Both the position numbers and the translations under genes were made by a program. The notes below the pieces were generated by a model, which was given only the letters and a program-made list of their open reading frames with translations, made no database searches and was not told the DNA's origin. Positions 5,922 through 61,849 of a stretch of DNA of 64,000 nucleotides are shown piece after piece (position 1 is the stretch's first letter; the number at the start of each line of letters is the position of its first letter). Where the stretch lies: the NCBI GenBank assembly GCA_964016885.1, contig OZ024751.1, positions 46,686,001 through 46,750,000 on the forward strand. Direction: 5' to 3'. Source of the DNA: Eledone cirrhosa (lineage: Eukaryota).

Positions 5922-5988
<67 letters not shown>

Positions 5989-6082
5989 GAAGTAATTCCG
6001 TCGGAAAAGTCCAGGAAAAAAGAGTGCTCTATGTAGGTAACAGAGCTTAATAGTTATGTAATAAACAATATAAGGCAATTAT

Positions 6083-6140
6083 TCCATTTACCAGTGGTTT
6101 CTTAAAAGCAAAAAATTTTGCTTTCAATCATCAGAATGAA
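6083..6140 (-). ncRNA. Type I hammerhead ribozyme motif
   Basis: Minus strand reads TTCATT-CTGATGA-[TTGAAAGCAAAA..TTTTGCTTTTAA stem II]-GAAAC-CACTG-GTA-AATGGA. Stems I, II and III all pair and the cleavage triplet is GUA. Confidence 0.85.
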
Positions 6141-6652
6141 AAAATCCTGGTCTGTTTATTGAATTTGAATTTGAATTTGCTATATATATATATATATATA
6201 TATAAAGTGGAAGCTTAGTAAAATCAAAGATTTGGCTGTAGCCAAGCAAAGTCGACCTATAGTAAGGAATGAGTAGCAAAGCACTCCTCAGAGTAATAAC
6301 ATACGTTTAAATAGCTTGACAAATTGAAAATTGCGGTAGGCAAAACCCAACCATACAATACCAAAGCAACGAAAGAATTAATCAGGTTATACATATATAT
6401 ATTTGACTAATGTGATTTACCGATTGATAGTGAAATATATTTCTTTATTTAATGAAATATATACAAAGGAGATTAATCATTTTAAAATGTATCTATATTT
6501 GAAGTTCTAGTGAAACTTTAATTAGTTACCTTCCTATCTGTGTGTGATTACACACTTTACAAATTATTCGCTGTGATTGTTTCATGTTTATTTTATATAT
6601 ATATATATGTCAATCAATTTCTAGTTGATATATATGCATGTATATATATACA

Positions 6653-6735
<83 letters not shown>

Positions 6736-6761
6736 TGTAATAAACAACATAAGATAATTAT

Positions 6762-6822
6762 TTCATTTACCAGTGGTTTCTTGAAGACAGATGTTGTGTC
6801 CGTCTTCAGTCGTCAGAATGAA
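6762..6822 (-). ncRNA. Type I hammerhead ribozyme motif (paralog of 6083-6140)
   Basis: TTCATT-CTGACGA-C[TGAAGACGGA..TCTGTCTTCA]A-GAAAC-CACTG-GTA-AATGAA. Flanks match the 6083 copy but stem II has a different, still paired sequence. Confidence 0.85.
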
Positions 6823-6886
6823 TAAAAAAACACCTGGTGTTTTTATTAAATATGGATTATATATATATGCATGTATATATATACAG

Positions 6887-6923
<37 letters not shown>

Positions 6924-6959
6924 ATGTGTGTATATATATACTGTTTATATATATATATA

Positions 6960-7079
6960 TATAAAGAAAAAAAGATGAAATCGAAAATGCAACTGGAGTC
7001 TTATTTAAAAAAATATATATATATTTAAAAAAAAATAAGACTCCAGTTGCATTTTCGATTTCATCTTTTTTTCTTTATA
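6960..7079. repeat. Fold-back inverted repeat in (TA)n
   Basis: TATAAAGAAAAAAAGATGAAATCGAAAATGCAACTGGAGTCTTATTT is followed by its reverse complement after an AT spacer. Confidence 0.9.
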
Positions 7080-12708: not shown

Positions 12709-13067
<359 letters not shown>

Positions 13068-14134: not shown

Positions 14135-14269
14135 GAGTTAAACAAGATTCAATGAGTATATCAAAGAATGAGTTTTAAAGTAGATTAGAAGCACTCTATG
14201 GGAAATAATTTTCCAGAGTTATTAATATTAAAATACAAATATTAATAAAATAGATGTTCTTTTGATCAA

Positions 14270-14330
14270 TTACATTTTATTATAGATATTTCGGATGTAC
14301 AACAGTGCGTCCTCATCAGACAAAATATAA
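14270..14330 (-). ncRNA. Type I hammerhead ribozyme motif
   Basis: TTATATTTTGT-CTGATGA-[GGACGCAC..GTACATCC]-GAAATATCTATA-ATAAAATGTAA. Stem I is 11 bp including G-U pairs; the triplet is AUA. Confidence 0.8.
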
Positions 14331-22082: not shown

Positions 22083-22151
22083 ATTTTATTATGCGCATTT
22101 CAAAAACAAACATCATCATGCAATAATATTTGTGTTTTCATCAGATAAAAC
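22083..22151 (-). ncRNA. Type I hammerhead (family C, left arm)
   Basis: GTTTTAT-CTGATGA-[AAACACAAATATTAT..ATGATGTTTGTTTTT]-GAAATGCGCATA-ATAAAAT; stem III is the palindrome ATGCGCAT; the triplet is AUA. Confidence 0.82.
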
Positions 22152-22282
22152 AGGAGAACATGATATGAAGGCTAAAAAACACTTGTGGATAGTGCAGTTT
22201 TAAATCAACATTTGATTAAAAACAGTTGATTTAAAACTGCACTATCCACAAGTGTTTTTTAGCCTTCATATCATGTTCTCCT

Positions 22283-22351
22283 GTTTTATCTGATGAAAAC
22301 ACAAATATTATTGCATGATGATGTTTGTTTTTGAAATGCGTATAATAAAAT
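22283..22351 (+). ncRNA. Type I hammerhead (family C, right arm)
   Basis: Same fold on the + strand; stem III reads ATGCGTAT. Confidence 0.8.
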
Positions 22352-23620: not shown

Positions 23621-23682
23621 ATATATATATATATATATATACGATATTAAACAAATGGAAACTACATTTATAAAACCATATT

Positions 23683-23748
23683 TATTTCATTATATATATT
23701 TCAGGGATATCATATTAAAAATATGGTATGCCCTCTTCAGACAAAATA
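23683..23748 (-). ncRNA. Type I hammerhead (left arm)
   Basis: Reverse-complement copy of 23896-23961. Confidence 0.78.
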
Positions 23749-23895
23749 CAATATATAAACAGTTTTATAAATAAATTTGACATACCTTAAACTTTACAAC
23801 TTCCATTTAAAAAGTTGTTTTGGTAGTGTTTTTTTAAATGGAAGTTGTAAAGTTTAAGGTATGTCAAATTTATTTATAAAACTGTTTATATATTG

Positions 23896-23961
23896 TATTT
23901 TGTCTGAAGAGGGCATACCATATTTTTAATATGATATCCCTGAAATATATATAATGAAATA
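23896..23961 (+). ncRNA. Type I hammerhead (right arm)
   Basis: TATTTTGT-CTGAAGA-[GGGCATACCATATT..AATATGATATCCC]T-GAAATATATATA-ATGAAATA; the triplet is AUA. Confidence 0.78.
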
Positions 23962-24089
23962 AATATGGTTTTATAAATGTAGTTTCCATTTGTTTAATAT
24001 CGTAAATAAACTCCAAAACTTGTTGAGTGCTTTTATATCAGTTATAAAATATTTACTCGTTGTAACCCAACAATTTTAAATAAAACTTT

Positions 24090-31906: not shown

Positions 31907-31997
31907 CCAGTAAGACCCCGACGGCTGAGCTCAAGCCGTTTCGACGGAATTAGCCGTCAAAACGGCTTGAGCTCAGCCGTCGGGGTCTTACTGGTTC

Positions 31998-32269: not shown

Positions 32270-32380
<111 letters not shown>

Positions 32381-32542
32381 GCTGTCTAAATGTATGTTAT
32401 AACTCTAAGGTAAAATTCCTTATTGAGTGCTTTTGGCTGCACTTCCCGACAGCATTCGTCAGCTTGCCCGCAACCAGAGCTCCGACTATGCCTGTACTAC
32501 TTTCTTGTATATATATATATATATATATACACATACACACAG

Positions 32543-38609: not shown

Positions 38610-38799
38610 AACAAAGGAATTGTGGTAAGGAACCAAATGGACCATAACGCACCAGAGTACTCAATACTTAGGGTAGTAGAGTGGGAAATATGAAAAGTAT
38701 GACCCCGACGGCAGAGCTCAAGCCGTTTCGGCGGGTATTTCTGAGTCCAGAAATAGCCGTCGAAAGGGCTTGAGCTCTGCCGTCGGGGTCATACTTTTT

Positions 38800-47319: not shown

Positions 47320-47675
47320 ATCAAAAGATGGTTAAATGAGTTCCATGTATTTTATTATGCGCATTTCAAAAACAAATATCATCATGCAATAACATTTGTG
47401 TTTTCATCAGATAACATATGTTGATTTAAAACTGCACTATCCACAAGTGTTTTTTAACCTTCATATCATGTCCTCCTATTTTATCTGATGAAAACACAAA
47501 TGTTATTGCATGATGATATTTGTTTTTGAAATGCGCATGATAAAATACATGGAACTCATTTAACCATCTTTTGATCTTATATATTATGTATACTCCAGTC
47601 CTACAAACTGTAGAGTGCTTCTTATCCGATATCTGCATTGCTTTATTGTACTACAATAAAACTCACCTCCTACAT
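47315..47675. mobile_element. Family C fold-back element with two hammerheads (47349-47414 on -, 47478-47546 on +)
   Basis: Inverted homolog of 21955-22397 with a different fold-back junction; the + copy has an AUG (non-cleavable) triplet. Confidence 0.9.
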
Positions 47676-50290: not shown

Positions 50291-52148
50291 CCCAGTTCTG
50301 TGACCGGGGGCGTAGTCACACTAGTCAGGCAGGACGAGAATAAGTTGGATGACATAGGCAACTTCCGGCCCATAACTCTGCTAAACACAGAGTTACAGAT
50401 TTTGGCCAAGGTGTTGGCAAAGAAGCTGGCGCTTGTCGTCGAGAACCTGGTGGGAGAAGCGCAGACATGCGCAATCCCGACCAGGTCCATACACGACAAC
50501 CTCCACCTCATGCGATACATCATAGAGAGGGTAGGGTGTAAACCCAGCTTCGGTGGGGCCCTGATCAACTTGGATCAGTCTAAGGCTTTCAATAGGGTTG
50601 ACCATCGTTACCTGGATGCGGTGCTCGAGGCGGCAGGCTTCTGACCCGTGTTCAGGGGCTGGATTGCTGCAATGCATAACAGTAACATCTGCTCAAGGGT
50701 TAAGGTGAACGGCTACCTCTCGGAGCCGTTCGATATCACGCGATCCATTCGACAGGGATGCCCTCTCTCCTCCCTTCTGTACGTATTGACTCTCGAGCCA
50801 CTACTACGGAAGTTGGAGCTATTGCAGGGCATCCTTCTGGAACCGGGACTGCGGAAAGCGGCGTCGGCCTACGCCGACGACGTGACAGTAATGGTGTCGA
50901 GCGCCTCGCAAATCGAGGAAGTCGGCACCTTACTGAAGGAATACGAAAGGTTCACAGGAGCGAAGCTGAACCGGGACAAGTCCATCGGCTTGCAATTCGG
51001 ATCGTGGAGAGGCAGACCGATGCCTTCCGATGGCGTCGTCGGACGCTGGACGGAAGGACCAGTAAAGCTGCTCGGGGTCTGGTTTCGTCCGGACCTCCAG
51101 GTGGAGAAGAACTGGAACGAGGTGTCGGCCAAGGTGTTTGGAAGAGGCGGGCTCCTTTGGTGAGAAGATCCATCTGCTGTCAACGCCCTTCCAACGGAGG
51201 GCTGGGGATGCCGTGGCTGATGATGCGCAAACACGCGCTTACACACGCTCAGGCTGCGGCATCTCTACGTATTCTTCACCGGACAACCGGTGTGGGCCCC
51301 TTTCGTGAGGCGAGCCTTCCCACGACTCGTCTCGCTGACCGAGCTGCAGTCCTGGGTCAAGCAAAGACCGAGGAAAATGGGCGACTGGCACATCGAATGT
51401 GCTCAGGCGCTCACAGCCCTCTGGCAAGCGGACCCGGCGATCAGTGGAGACTCCACTTCGTCATTCTATAGAGGGTTGATCCGCAGCAAGTGCGGCGACG
51501 TGCTCGGTGAAACTCTGGGCGTAGAGGAAGACGAACTGGCCAGTCTGTTCGGTAGGACCTTCCGCCCGGGACCGATGGACAACTTCCAAAAAAGTCCCTG
51601 GCCTGGCAGTGCTACCGAGGAGCTCTACCAGTTCGAGACAAGCTCTACATACATGGGCGCCCAGGCAGGGACCCTGCAAACAAGATCTGTCCGAGGTGCG
51701 TGGGAGACGAAGAAACCGTCGCGCACGCATTCATACACTGCCCGGGCGTCACCGACCTGTGGGGCTATGTAGAACGACTATTGTCGCGGGTGGGACCAAT
51801 CCGGTTGACCACCGAATCCATTGTCATGATCAAACCGCCACCCTCCTTCAAAAACGAAGGAGAGGCGGTTTTCCTTTGTGTGATAGCTATGGCGAAAGAG
51901 GTTGTATGGTGGACGAGGTTAAAAGGGCTGAGGTCAGACACCTTTCTCTCCGGCCAATGAGGGTTGGAGATGAGGGTTGTACATTTTTTCGGGGTGTGTA
52001 CAACCCCTGTGTAACACCTCCCCCTATTGGGGATTTCAATTGTTTTTTGTTATTTTATTAATAGTATTATTTTCATATACCTGTATGTAAACTCCCCATT
52101 TGTATTTGTCCCCTTCTTTTGTGCCCTTGTGGCTAATAAAGAAATTTA
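50291..52148 (+). mobile_element. 5'-truncated Tx1/L1-clade non-LTR retrotransposon (inactive RT ORF2)
   Basis: NFRPITLLNTELQILAKVLA, LDQSKAFNRVDH, IRQGCPLS, AYADD and a C-terminal CPRC...ETVAHAFIHC; stop at 50642, frameshifts, internal deletion near 51135; AATAAA then (TCTG)n. Confidence 0.93.
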
Positions 52149-52526: not shown

Positions 52527-52584
52527 ACTGCTATATATATATTTCGATGATAGCCATTGAATGGCTATGACCTCATCAGGCAGT
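52527..52584 (-). ncRNA. Type I hammerhead ribozyme motif
   Basis: ACTGC-CTGATGA-[GGTCATAGCCAT TCA ATGGCTATCATC]-GAAATATATATATA-GCAGT; perfect stem I and palindromic (AT)n stem III. Confidence 0.85.
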
Positions 52585-56971: not shown

Positions 56972-57147
56972 AACGAAGGAAATGTGGTAAGGAACCAGAT
57001 GGACCATAACGCACCAAAGTACTCAATACTTAGGATAGTAGAGTGGGTAATAGGAACGAGTAGGACCCCGACGGCTGAACTCAAGCCGTCCAGAATTAGC
57101 CGTCGAAACGGCTTGAGCTCAGCCGTCGGGGTCCTACTCGTTCCTAT
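56972..57147. mobile_element. Family A fold-back element
   Basis: Tail plus palindrome of about 57050-57147; right arm GAAACGGCTTGAGCTCAGCCGTCGGGGTC. Confidence 0.85.
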
Positions 57148-59433: not shown

Positions 59434-59676
59434 GCTGTTCATGTTACCTCTTTATTGTGCCGGATTCATAGAACAATCTCTGTTGCTCAACCGACGACGA
59501 AATGACAAGGAACGCATCCCCTGTAAGAACTTATCTGATGATATCTCTATAGACAGCAATTCAACTGACCCGATGCGCAAACAACGGGAACAAATTGTGC
59601 CCAAGATCTACATTTGCGCTACAATGTGGCATGAAACTGTACATGAGATGACACAATTATTAAAATCTGTTTTCAG
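59434..59676 (+). CDS. CHS: Chitin synthase exon H (entry into the GT2 catalytic region)
   Basis: TTCAG acceptor; LFMLPLYCAGFIEQSLLLNRRR...IYICATMWHET..EMTQLLKSVF(R), where CATMWHE is diagnostic of metazoan chitin synthases; GTAAAT donor. Confidence 0.96.
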
Positions 59677-59724
59677 GTAAATAAAGATAAATTTCACATT
59701 ACTAAAAGTTCCACATAACTGGCC

Positions 59725-61790
59725 CAGTCTTAGCTTCCACAATCGTAGCTTCCACAGTCTTAGCTTCCACAGTCTTAGCTTCCACAGTCTTAGCTTCCAC
59801 AGTCTTAGCTTCCACAGTCTTAGCTTCCACAATCGTAGCTTCCACAGTCTTAGCTTCCACAGTCTTAGCTTCCACAGTCTTAGCTTCCACAATCTTAGCT
59901 TCCACAGTCTTAGCTTCCACAGTCTTAGCTTCCACAGTCTTAGCTTCCACAGTCTTAGCTTCCACAATCGTAGCTTCCACAGTCTTAGCTTCCACAGTCT
60001 TAGCTTCCACAGTCTTAGCTTCCACAATCTTAGCTTCCACAGTCTTAGCTTCCACAGTCTTAGCTTCCACAATCTTAGCTTCCACAGTCTTAGCTTCCAC
60101 AGTCTTAGCTTCCACAGTCTTAGCTTCCACAATCTTAGCTTCCACAGTCTTAGCTTCCACAGTCTTAGCTTCCACAGTCTTAGCTTCCACAGTCTTAGCT
60201 TCCACAATTGTAGCTTCCACAGTCTTAGCTTCCACAGTCTTAGCTTCCACAGTCTTAGCTTCCACAGTCTTAGCTTCCACAATCTTAGCTTCCACAGTCT
60301 TAGCTTCCACAGTATTAGCTTCCACAGTCTTAGCTTCCACAGTCTTAGCTTCCACAGTCTTAGCTTCCACAGTCTTAGCTTCCACAATCGTAGCTTCCAC
60401 AGTCTTAGCTTCCACAGTCTTAGCTTCCACAATCTTAGCTTCCACAGTCTTAGCTTCCACAGTATTAGCTTCCACAGTCTTAGCTTCCACAGTCTTAGCT
60501 TCCACAGTCTTAGCTTCCACAGTCTTAGCTTCCACAGTCGTAGCTTCCACAGTCTTAGCTTCCACAGTCTTAGCTTCCACAATCTTAGCTTCCACAGTCT
60601 TAGCTTCCACAGTCTTAGCTTCCACAATCTTAGCTTCCACAGTCTTAGCTTCCACAGTCTTAGCTTCCACAGTCTTAGCTCCCACAATCTTAGCTTCCAC
60701 AGTCTTAGCTTCCACAATCTTAGCTTCCACAGTCTTAGCTTCCACAGTCTTAGCTTCCACAGTCTTAACTTCCACAGTCTTAGCTTCCACAATCGTAGCT
60801 TCCACAGTCTTAGCTTCCACAGTCTTAGCTTCCACAGTCGTAGCTTCCACACTCTTAGCTTCCACAGTCTTAGCTTCCACAGTCTTAGCTTCCACAGTCT
60901 TAGCTTCCACAATCGTAGCTTCCACAGTCTTAGCTTCCACAGTCTTAGCTTCCACAATCGTAGCTTCCACAGTCTTAGCTTCCACAGTCTTAGCTTCCAC
61001 AATCGTAGCTTCCACAGTCTTAGCTTCCACAGTCTTAGCTTCCACAGTCTTAGCTTCCACAATCTTAGCTTCCACAGTCTTAGCTTCCACAATCTTAGCT
61101 TCCACAGTCTTAGCTTCCACAGTCTTAGCTTCCACAGTCTTAGCTTCCACAATCGTAGCTTCCACAATCTTAGCTTCCACAGTCTTAGCTTCCACAGTCT
61201 TAGCTTCCACAGTCGTAGCTTCCACAGTCTTAGCTTCCACAGTCTTAGCTTCCACAGTCTTAGCTTCCACAGTCTTAGCTTCCACAATCGTAGCTTCCAC
61301 AGTCTTAGCTTCCACAGTCTTAGCTTCCACAATCGTAGCTTCCACAGTCTTAGCTTCCACAGTCTTAGCTTCCACAGTCTTAGCTTCCACAGTCTTAGCT
61401 TCCACAATCGTAGCTTCCACAGTCTTAGCTTCCACAGTCTTAGCTTCCACAATCGTAGCTTCCACAGTCTTAGCTTCCACAGTCTTAGCTTCCACAGTCG
61501 TAGCTTCCACAGTCTTAGCTTCCACAGTCTTAGCTTCCACAGTCTTAGCTTCCACAGTCTTAGCTTCCACAATCGTAGCTTCCACAGTCTTAGCTTCCAC
61601 AGTCTTAGCTTCCACAGTCTTAGCTTCCACAGTCTTAGCTTCCACAATCGTAGCTTCCACAGTCTTAGCTTCCACAGTCTTAGCTTCCACAGTCTTAGCT
61701 TCCACAGTCTTAGCTTCCACAATCTTAGCTTCCACAGTCTTAGCTTCCACAGTCTTAGCTTCCACAGTCGTAGCTTCAATAATCGTAGTA
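59725..61790. repeat. 15-bp satellite (AGTCTTAGCTTCCAC)n
   Basis: About 137 units; source of the WKLRL/EAKTV pseudo-ORFs. Confidence 0.98.
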
Positions 61791-61849
61791 TTTCGATCAT
61801 AGCTCTTTAAATCTTAATTTTCTCGGGTATTAAATTCTTCCTACGTAAC

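What the first reader, a model, noticed from the sequence alone, without database searches (positions are those of the whole stretch)
6051..6822. Two sibling hammerheads with rewritten but still paired stem II
Seen: the copies at 6083-6140 and 6762-6822 share stem I, core, GAAACCACTGGTA and a ~30-nt tail. Stem II differs: TTGAAAGCAAAA/TTTTGCTTTTAA versus TGAAGACGGA/TCTGTCTTCA. Conserved pairing with changed sequence is the best internal evidence that these motifs were selected as RNA structures. Being tandem on one strand about 680 nt apart, they could also excise a unit-length RNA as retrozymes do (inference).
Basis: partly seen in the sequence, partly recalled or inferred. Interest (0 to 1): 0.72.

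Follow-up and report, generated by a model that had tools for sequence, protein, structure and literature searches.

The report
Penelope retroelement ends with minimal hammerheads
Both self-cutting-RNA (hammerhead) motifs are real, but they are two copies of a very common repeat in a squid/octopus-type genome, likely the leftover ends of Penelope-like jumping genes that landed separately in TA repeats, which is an ordinary, already described kind of element.

Summary
Confirmed: there are two minus-strand type I hammerhead motifs (cores 6134-6089 and 6816-6768; predicted cut sites 679 nt apart). They share an identical palindromic stem III and a 35/39-identical tail. Their 11-pair stems II differ by 9 substitutions: three pairs change on both sides and one is broken in copy B. 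From two copies alone this supports selection only moderately (P 0.003-0.07). The motif is a high-copy repeat: 3,732 contigs of one run lie on 631 nt, many ending at the same point in (TA)n, as copy B does. The window holds nine such motifs, some as inverted pairs. This anatomy matches truncated Penelope-like element (PLE) ends with minimal hammerheads. The 679-nt retrozyme reading is not supported: the interval is not tandemly repeated, it consists of two other repeats plus TA runs, and A and B are only about 75% alike. No PLE ORF was found in the window, so membership rests on anatomy. Rfam does not score the motifs. Cleavage and expression are untested. One small departure: stem II closes with U-A (C-A in B), not the usual G-C. 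Ordinary; low interest.

The parts
6082..6141 (-). Hammerhead A, type I: stem I 7 bp, core 6134-6128, stem II 11 bp (6127-6117 with 6112-6102), GAAA, stem III 3 bp with near-palindromic loop; predicted cut 3' of the A at 6089
6050..6088 (-). 3' arm of stem I plus tail of copy A; 6050 is a common family end into (TA)n
   Evidence: 35/39 identical to B's tail; 22 contigs of run X1 leave the stretch at 6050 into TA repeats
5986..6049 (-). Family-specific extension past the common end, with a short hairpin motif at 6046-6023; absent from copy B
   Evidence: high depth in reads, about half of the tail's; a similar motif follows 3 other hammerheads of the window
6142..6180 (-). Short 5' remnant of copy A, bounded by a TA run (truncation point inferred)
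   Evidence: aligns in part with B 6823-6860; depth falls at 6144-6165
6762..6822 (-). Hammerhead B, type I: stem I 6 bp, core 6816-6810, C-A mismatch then 10-bp stem II, same stem III; predicted cut 3' of the A at 6768
6729..6767 (-). 3' arm of stem I plus tail of copy B, running directly into (TA)n
6823..6860 (-). Short 5' remnant of copy B, bounded by a TA/TG microsatellite
5924..5985 (.). (TA)31 beyond copy A
6181..6204 (.). Short TA run upstream of copy A
6206..6390 (-). Spacer repeat 1: piece of another high-copy repeat bearing the same kind of short hairpin motif (6294-6280); a relative lies near 32380-32431
   Evidence: separate depth hump at 6276-6341
6401..6590 (.). Spacer repeat 2: another high-copy repeat, unidentified
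   Evidence: separate depth hump at 6430-6583; a contig joins at 6401 with 125 nt of other DNA before it
6628..6731 (.). About 51 TA units, the likely insertion target of copy B
6858..6963 (.). TA/TG microsatellite upstream of copy B

Best explanation
The two motifs are copies of one high-copy repeat family and are likely the 5'-truncated ends (pseudo-LTR with minimal type I hammerhead plus tail) of Penelope-like retroelements that inserted separately into (TA)n tracts. Shown: the motif anatomy, the repeat nature, a shared end at (TA)n, and the lack of a tandem unit. Inferred: in the parent elements the hammerhead would cut the tandem transcript after GUA as a dimer, pairing two copies through the palindromic stem III, to release element RNA for reverse transcription; the element's RT and GIY-YIG endonuclease would then insert mostly truncated copies at TA repeats. 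A and B likely come from two subfamilies whose stems II diverged while keeping pairing, so the covariation records selection on past active elements. At this locus the two copies are likely inert passengers, antisense to a myosin-chitin synthase gene and probably inside one of its introns.
For: High copy: 3,732 contigs of run X1 lie on 631 nt, with depth peaking over stem III and tail; 22 contigs end at 6050 in TA repeats, where B ends. 9 type I motifs in the window against 0.18 expected; 5 of 9 reach (TA)4 within 36-50 nt of the cut site and the other 4 reach a shared hairpin motif at 42-61 nt. Two exact inverted pairs with arms of 116 and 174 nt. This matches the published PLE anatomy: 5' truncation, inverted copies, a tail at one end, TA bias (PMC8557442, passages); solo minimal hammerheads with long helix II and palindromic helix III (PMC4209133). 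Stem III of A and B can form an 8-bp intermolecular duplex, -8.2 kcal/mol. The host's chitin synthase is closest to an Octopus bimaculoides protein (76%); PLEs make up 6.83% of the O. vulgaris genome, in 190 families (supplement of PMC13282606).
Against: No PLE reverse transcriptase or GIY-YIG domain in 366 of 395 stop-free segments scanned against Pfam; the only RT hits, at 50.3-51.2 kb, look like an L1/Tx1-type LINE by recalled motifs. So no link to an autonomous PLE is shown. Stem II closes with U-A (A) or C-A (B), with no extra base after A9, unlike the G10.1-C11.1 pair and inserted base of the published minimal consensus. Rfam does not score either motif. The extension in A is about 64 nt, longer than the published 30-40-nt tail. 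No cleavage or RNA data.
Confidence: 0.8

Rival explanations
1. The family is a non-autonomous hammerhead repeat (solo monomers of a non-LTR retrozyme or a SINE-like element) that is mobilised by PLE proteins but is not itself the end of an autonomous PLE; A and B are still independent insertions.
For: No PLE ORF in the window; very high copy number and short length; animal retrozymes are reported to derive from pLTRs and often occur as solo monomers (10.64898/2026.07.22.740005).
Against: Depth falls towards the 5' side and halves at the TA-linked end, as expected for truncated ends rather than unit monomers; sister families in the window form inverted pairs typical of PLEs.
Confidence: 0.12
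2. B, spacer and A form a 679-nt retrozyme-like unit: a minus-strand transcript would be cut at both GUA sites through a B:A double hammerhead and circularise, either as an amplified element or as a chance product of two insertions.
For: Same strand, cut sites 679 nt apart, identical stem III able to pair in trans; the length lies within the 51-972 bp range reported for animal retrozyme consensus sequences.
Against: DNA beyond A does not resemble DNA beyond B (no hit), and the spacer against DNA upstream of B gives one 19-nt out-of-register hit. The spacer has two separate depth humps (134,000 and 141,000) with a trough of 519 between them in X1, and 9-23 reads against 200-460 in X21. 145 of 679 nt are TA runs. 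A and B are about 75% alike. B has a C-A mismatch next to the core.
Confidence: 0.05
3. The stem II covariation arose at the DNA level (hairpin template switching or conversion within an inverted repeat), and the motifs are not, or are no longer, selected ribozymes.
For: All stem II changes are transitions and chance is not excluded under a transitions-only model (P 0.06-0.07); atypical closing pair; no Rfam score.
Against: Intact CUGANGA, GAAA and GUA in both copies; among the 40 variant rows shown, those within hammerhead A lie at position 7, in loop II and at a compatible stem I pair; G-U pairs read as pairs on the minus strand.
Confidence: 0.03

Closest known systems
Minimal type I hammerheads of metazoan Penelope-like elements (Cervera and de la Pena 2014, PMC4209133; parts 1-2 of 4 read)
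   Same: Type I topology, long helix II, short palindromic helix III, mostly solo copies in heterogeneous families with compensatory changes, pairs on opposite strands 100-700 bp apart
   Different: Here helix II is 10-11 bp and closes with U-A or C-A, not G10.1-C11.1, with no extra base after A9; no linked PLE ORF is shown; cephalopods are not named in the parts I read
Insertion structure of endonuclease-bearing PLEs (Craig et al. 2021, PMC8557442; passages and supplement search)
   Same: 5' truncation, inverted truncated copies, an extension at one end only, (TA)n preference
   Different: The Naiad clade, with TA targets and Octopus members, lacks canonical hammerheads, so these would belong to another clade (Penelope/Poseidon, Neptune, Nematis or Hydra; not determined); the motif was not found in that paper's held supplement
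Animal non-LTR retrozymes (Cervera and de la Pena 2020, PMC7229834, passages; Li et al. 2026, 10.64898/2026.07.22.740005, parts 1-3 of 5)
   Same: Type I hammerheads on one strand a few hundred nt apart, low G+C, no ORF
   Different: Retrozymes are head-to-tail tandem repeats with a hammerhead in each unit and make abundant circular RNA; here the interval is not repeated and is a patchwork of other repeats; no RNA evidence

Membership tests
Type I hammerhead ribozyme | Core CUGANGA, GAAA and NUH cut site in type I order with three helices | tested here: met
Type I hammerhead ribozyme | Match to an Rfam hammerhead model | tested here: not met
   no hammerhead family at gathering score or at E up to 10
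Type I hammerhead ribozyme | Self-cleavage after GUA | not testable with these tools
   needs in vitro transcription
PLE minimal hammerhead | Short, palindromic helix III able to pair between two copies | tested here: met
   3-bp stem, 8-bp intermolecular duplex at -8.2 kcal/mol
PLE minimal hammerhead | Helix II longer than canonical, with compensatory changes among copies | tested here: met
   10-11 bp; 3 of 11 pairs changed on both sides; statistical support moderate
PLE minimal hammerhead | G10.1-C11.1 closing pair and an unpaired base after A9 (recurrent, not absolute, in PMC4209133) | tested here: not met
   U-A in A, C-A in B, no extra base
Penelope-like element | ORF with telomerase-like RT and GIY-YIG endonuclease next to the pLTR | tested here: inconclusive
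   none in 366 of 395 segments scanned; absence is expected for truncated copies; no genome is held
Penelope-like element | 5'-truncated high-copy ends with a defined 3' end, an extension at one end only, and inverted pairs | tested here: met
   depth profile and loose ends for this family; inverted pairs shown only for sister families in the window
Penelope-like element | Insertion bias for microsatellites such as (TA)n | tested here: met
   both copies are flanked by TA runs; 22 contigs end in TA at 6050; the window has 196 TA runs, so flanking alone is weak
Non-LTR retrozyme | Head-to-tail tandem repeat with a hammerhead in at least two consecutive similar units | tested here: not met
Non-LTR retrozyme | Expressed unit-length linear and circular RNA | not testable with these tools
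   no RNA run available for this stretch

The most novel reading that the evidence does not exclude
Two PLE ends that landed 679 nt apart in the same orientation form a working double hammerhead that cuts out and circularises the DNA-encoded RNA between them: a retrozyme caught at birth, built from a hammerhead family that cleaves without the usual G10.1-C11.1 pair.
Probability: 0.05. Interest if true: 0.55.

Novelty: new member of a known kind. Interest (0 to 1): 0.14.

Why it matters
As best explained it matters little: it adds one more cephalopod family to the known mass of PLE-type minimal hammerheads. I found no paper describing octopus hammerhead families in the held library, but the kind is described across metazoans. 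The U-A closing pair of stem II in a very successful family is a small, testable departure from the consensus. If the novel case held, the locus would give a direct test of how animal retrozymes arise from PLE ends.

Tried and rejected
No whole genome is held for this window, so no family alignment or R-scape-type test was possible. Rfam: no hammerhead hit. Relatives in public collections: 0 of 90 metagenome loci with the 17-nt motif had a hammerhead core upstream; 0 matches in viral contigs; 0 of 3 prokaryote loci had a core; all are taken as chance matches. Sequencing runs: no RNA holder listed, which says nothing about expression. The RT at 50.3-51.2 kb was considered as a partner and rejected as an L1/Tx1-type LINE remnant 44 kb away (clade from recalled motifs, no tree). 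The motif was not found in the held supplements of PMC13282606 and PMC8557442. The first stem II comparison used a wrong register and was replaced; its duplex, tail and distance values stand. Upstream exons of the host gene were not found in 1-11.6 kb, so the intronic position is inferred only. PMC544870 (passages) gave nothing on the effect of a U-A closing pair. Lunse et al. 2016 (PMC5785218) is not held and is known to me only as cited in PMC6765202; it may list this family. Tandem Repeats Finder stops at period 500, so it does not test a 679-nt unit; BLAST was used for that.

Full report
Observation. The two motifs are on the minus strand. Copy A has stem I 6141-6135 with 6088-6082, core 6134-6128, an 11-pair stem II with a 4-nt loop, GAAA, a 3-pair stem III with a 3-nt loop and GUA ending at 6089. 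Copy B has the same plan with core 6816-6810, a C-A mismatch and 10 pairs in stem II, a 7-nt loop and GUA ending at 6768. The predicted cut sites are 679 nt apart; the 13 nt from GAAA to GUA are identical and the tails match at 35 of 39 positions. BLAST gives 75% identity over 130 columns, E 8e-21. A core pattern matches 5 times against 0.24 expected, and a type I descriptor finds 9 motifs in the window against a mean of 0.18 in 60 simulations. Folding z-scores of the short motifs are modest, -1.5 and -2.3. Rfam scores neither motif as a hammerhead.

Stem II. Over 11 pairs there are 9 substitutions: 5 pairs are unchanged, 2 change on one side, 3 change on both sides and 1 is broken in B. Random placement of 9 substitutions gives at most one broken pair and at least three double changes with P 0.003-0.008 when 60-70% are transitions, and 0.06-0.07 when all are. 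In the column shuffle, 60 of 500 shuffles reach the observed value. So the two-copy evidence is moderate. Reads add some. Of the 40 variant rows shown (97 more were not shown), those inside hammerhead A are at 6130 (core position 7, the free one), 6114 and 6115 (loop II) and 6084 (G-U to A-U in stem I, as in B). One contig of run X5 and two of run X6 each differ from A at three places; matching depths imply these are 6114, 6115 and 6130. All three falling on free positions has P 0.015 over 66 nt, but these contigs likely share one variant and are not independent.

Repeat family. In run X1, 3,732 contigs lie on the 631 nt. Summed depth, which is not a copy number, is 780,000 over stem III and tail, 271,000-355,000 over stem II and core, 36,000 just upstream, and 365,000-436,000 over the extension beyond 6050; the single contigs listed have depths of 4-10. 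Twenty-two contigs leave the stretch at 6050 into TA repeats, the point where B ends. So the family is very abundant, has a defined end in (TA)n, and a large share of copies carry an extension, as A does.

Spacer. The interval is not a unit. It shows two separate depth humps (6276-6341, up to 134,000; 6430-6583, up to 141,000) with 519 between them, and 9-23 reads against 200-460 in X21. One contig joins at 6401 after 125 nt of other DNA. DNA beyond A has no similarity to DNA beyond B, and the spacer against DNA upstream of B gives one 19-nt out-of-register hit; 145 of 679 nt are TA runs. The tool skipped 6151-6214 and 6581-6620, so the junctions next to the hammerheads were not tested. Paired motifs of single insertions elsewhere in the window have identical arms of 116 and 174 nt, whereas A and B are about 75% alike, which points to separate insertions from two subfamilies (inference).

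Surroundings. Of the nine motifs, 5 reach (TA)4 within 36-50 nt of the cut site and the other 4, including A, reach a shared short hairpin motif at 42-61 nt. That motif occurs 17 times in the window. The motifs at 22090/22290 and 23691/23904 form inverted pairs in which one arm ends in TA and the other continues. The + strand carries exons of a myosin-motor chitin synthase: myosin head at 11.6-11.8 kb, IQ motif at 32.7 kb and chitin synthase exons at 53.8-59.7 kb. The closest protein is from Octopus bimaculoides at 76% identity. A and B are antisense to this gene. No upstream exon was found in 1-11.6 kb, so an intronic position is inferred. Pfam found no GIY-YIG or RT domain in 366 of 395 stop-free segments of 38 aa or more; the other 29 overlap the RT at 50.3-51.2 kb, which I read as an L1/Tx1-type LINE from recalled motifs.

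Mechanism. Shown: anatomy, repeat nature, common end, no tandem unit. Inferred from published work: PLE pseudo-LTRs carry type I hammerheads with a very short palindromic stem III that likely cleave as dimers, slowly, to process tandem transcripts (PMC6765202, passages; PMC4209133, parts 1-2 of 4). PLE insertions are mostly 5'-truncated, often inverted, carry an extension at one end and favour microsatellites (PMC8557442, passages). PLEs make up 6.83% of the O. vulgaris genome in 190 families (supplement search of PMC13282606; main text part 1 of 3). Stem III of A and B can pair in trans (8 bp, -8.2 kcal/mol), so a minus-strand transcript over both could in principle form a double hammerhead; nothing shows that such a transcript exists.

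Comparison and membership. It works like a PLE minimal hammerhead. It meets the core, topology, palindromic stem III, long stem II and truncated-end features; it does not meet the G10.1-C11.1 pair or the extra base after A9, and the link to an RT plus GIY-YIG ORF is not shown. It is not a non-LTR retrozyme by the tandem-unit criterion (PMC7229834, passages; 10.64898/2026.07.22.740005, parts 1-3 of 5; that preprint's supplements were not seen). Searches for octopus or cephalopod hammerheads listed no paper describing such a family; Lunse et al. 2016 is not held and repeat databases could not be searched, so the family may be catalogued.

Verdict. Real motifs, ordinary origin: a new member of a known kind, interest 0.14.

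Noticed in passing
window 22090-22344 and 23640-24004: Two inverted pairs of minimal type I hammerheads from other families, with identical arms of 116 and 174 nt; one arm ends in (TA)n and the other continues into a hairpin motif. A third copy of the first family is at 47356-47410, with a likely inverted partner near 47520-47620.
   Followed up: partly
window 14281-14319 (-) and 52532-52579 (-): Two further solo minimal hammerheads from other families, with stem III made largely of TA.
   Followed up: partly
window 12872-12894, 31920-31942, 38707-38729, 57105-57127: Four copies of a palindromic element holding the 3' half of a hammerhead (GAAAC, longer palindromic stem III, GUC) but no clear CUGANGA; likely inverted truncated ends of another family.
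   Followed up: partly
17 places in the window, e.g. 6023-6046, 6280-6294, 14190-14219, 24010-24031, 32402-32431: A short hairpin motif (ACTC...GAGTRCT type) shared by otherwise unrelated repeat families, lying just past the point where sister copies end in (TA)n; possibly a conserved signal for end formation or target cleavage (inference, no chance control run).
   Followed up: partly
window 6401-6590: Unidentified high-copy repeat; read variants suggest a short stem followed by GAAA on the + strand near 6418-6436, but no canonical hammerhead core.
   Followed up: no
window 6966-7073: Near-perfect inverted repeat of about 108 nt with an AT-rich centre, beside copy B; hits miRNA models only below their gathering scores.
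   Followed up: no
window 11618-59677 (+): Exons of a molluscan myosin-motor chitin synthase gene (myosin head, IQ motif, chitin synthase N-terminal domain); the closest Octopus protein model begins only at the 28.1-kb exon.
   Followed up: partly
window 50300-52130 (+): Broken, 5'-truncated non-LTR retrotransposon RT (Pfam RVT_1), L1/Tx1-like by recalled motifs, flanked by TCTG-type repeats.
   Followed up: partly
window 59581-61800: Long array of a 15-nt unit (138 overlapping 300-nt copies reported), G+C-skewed minisatellite.
   Followed up: no
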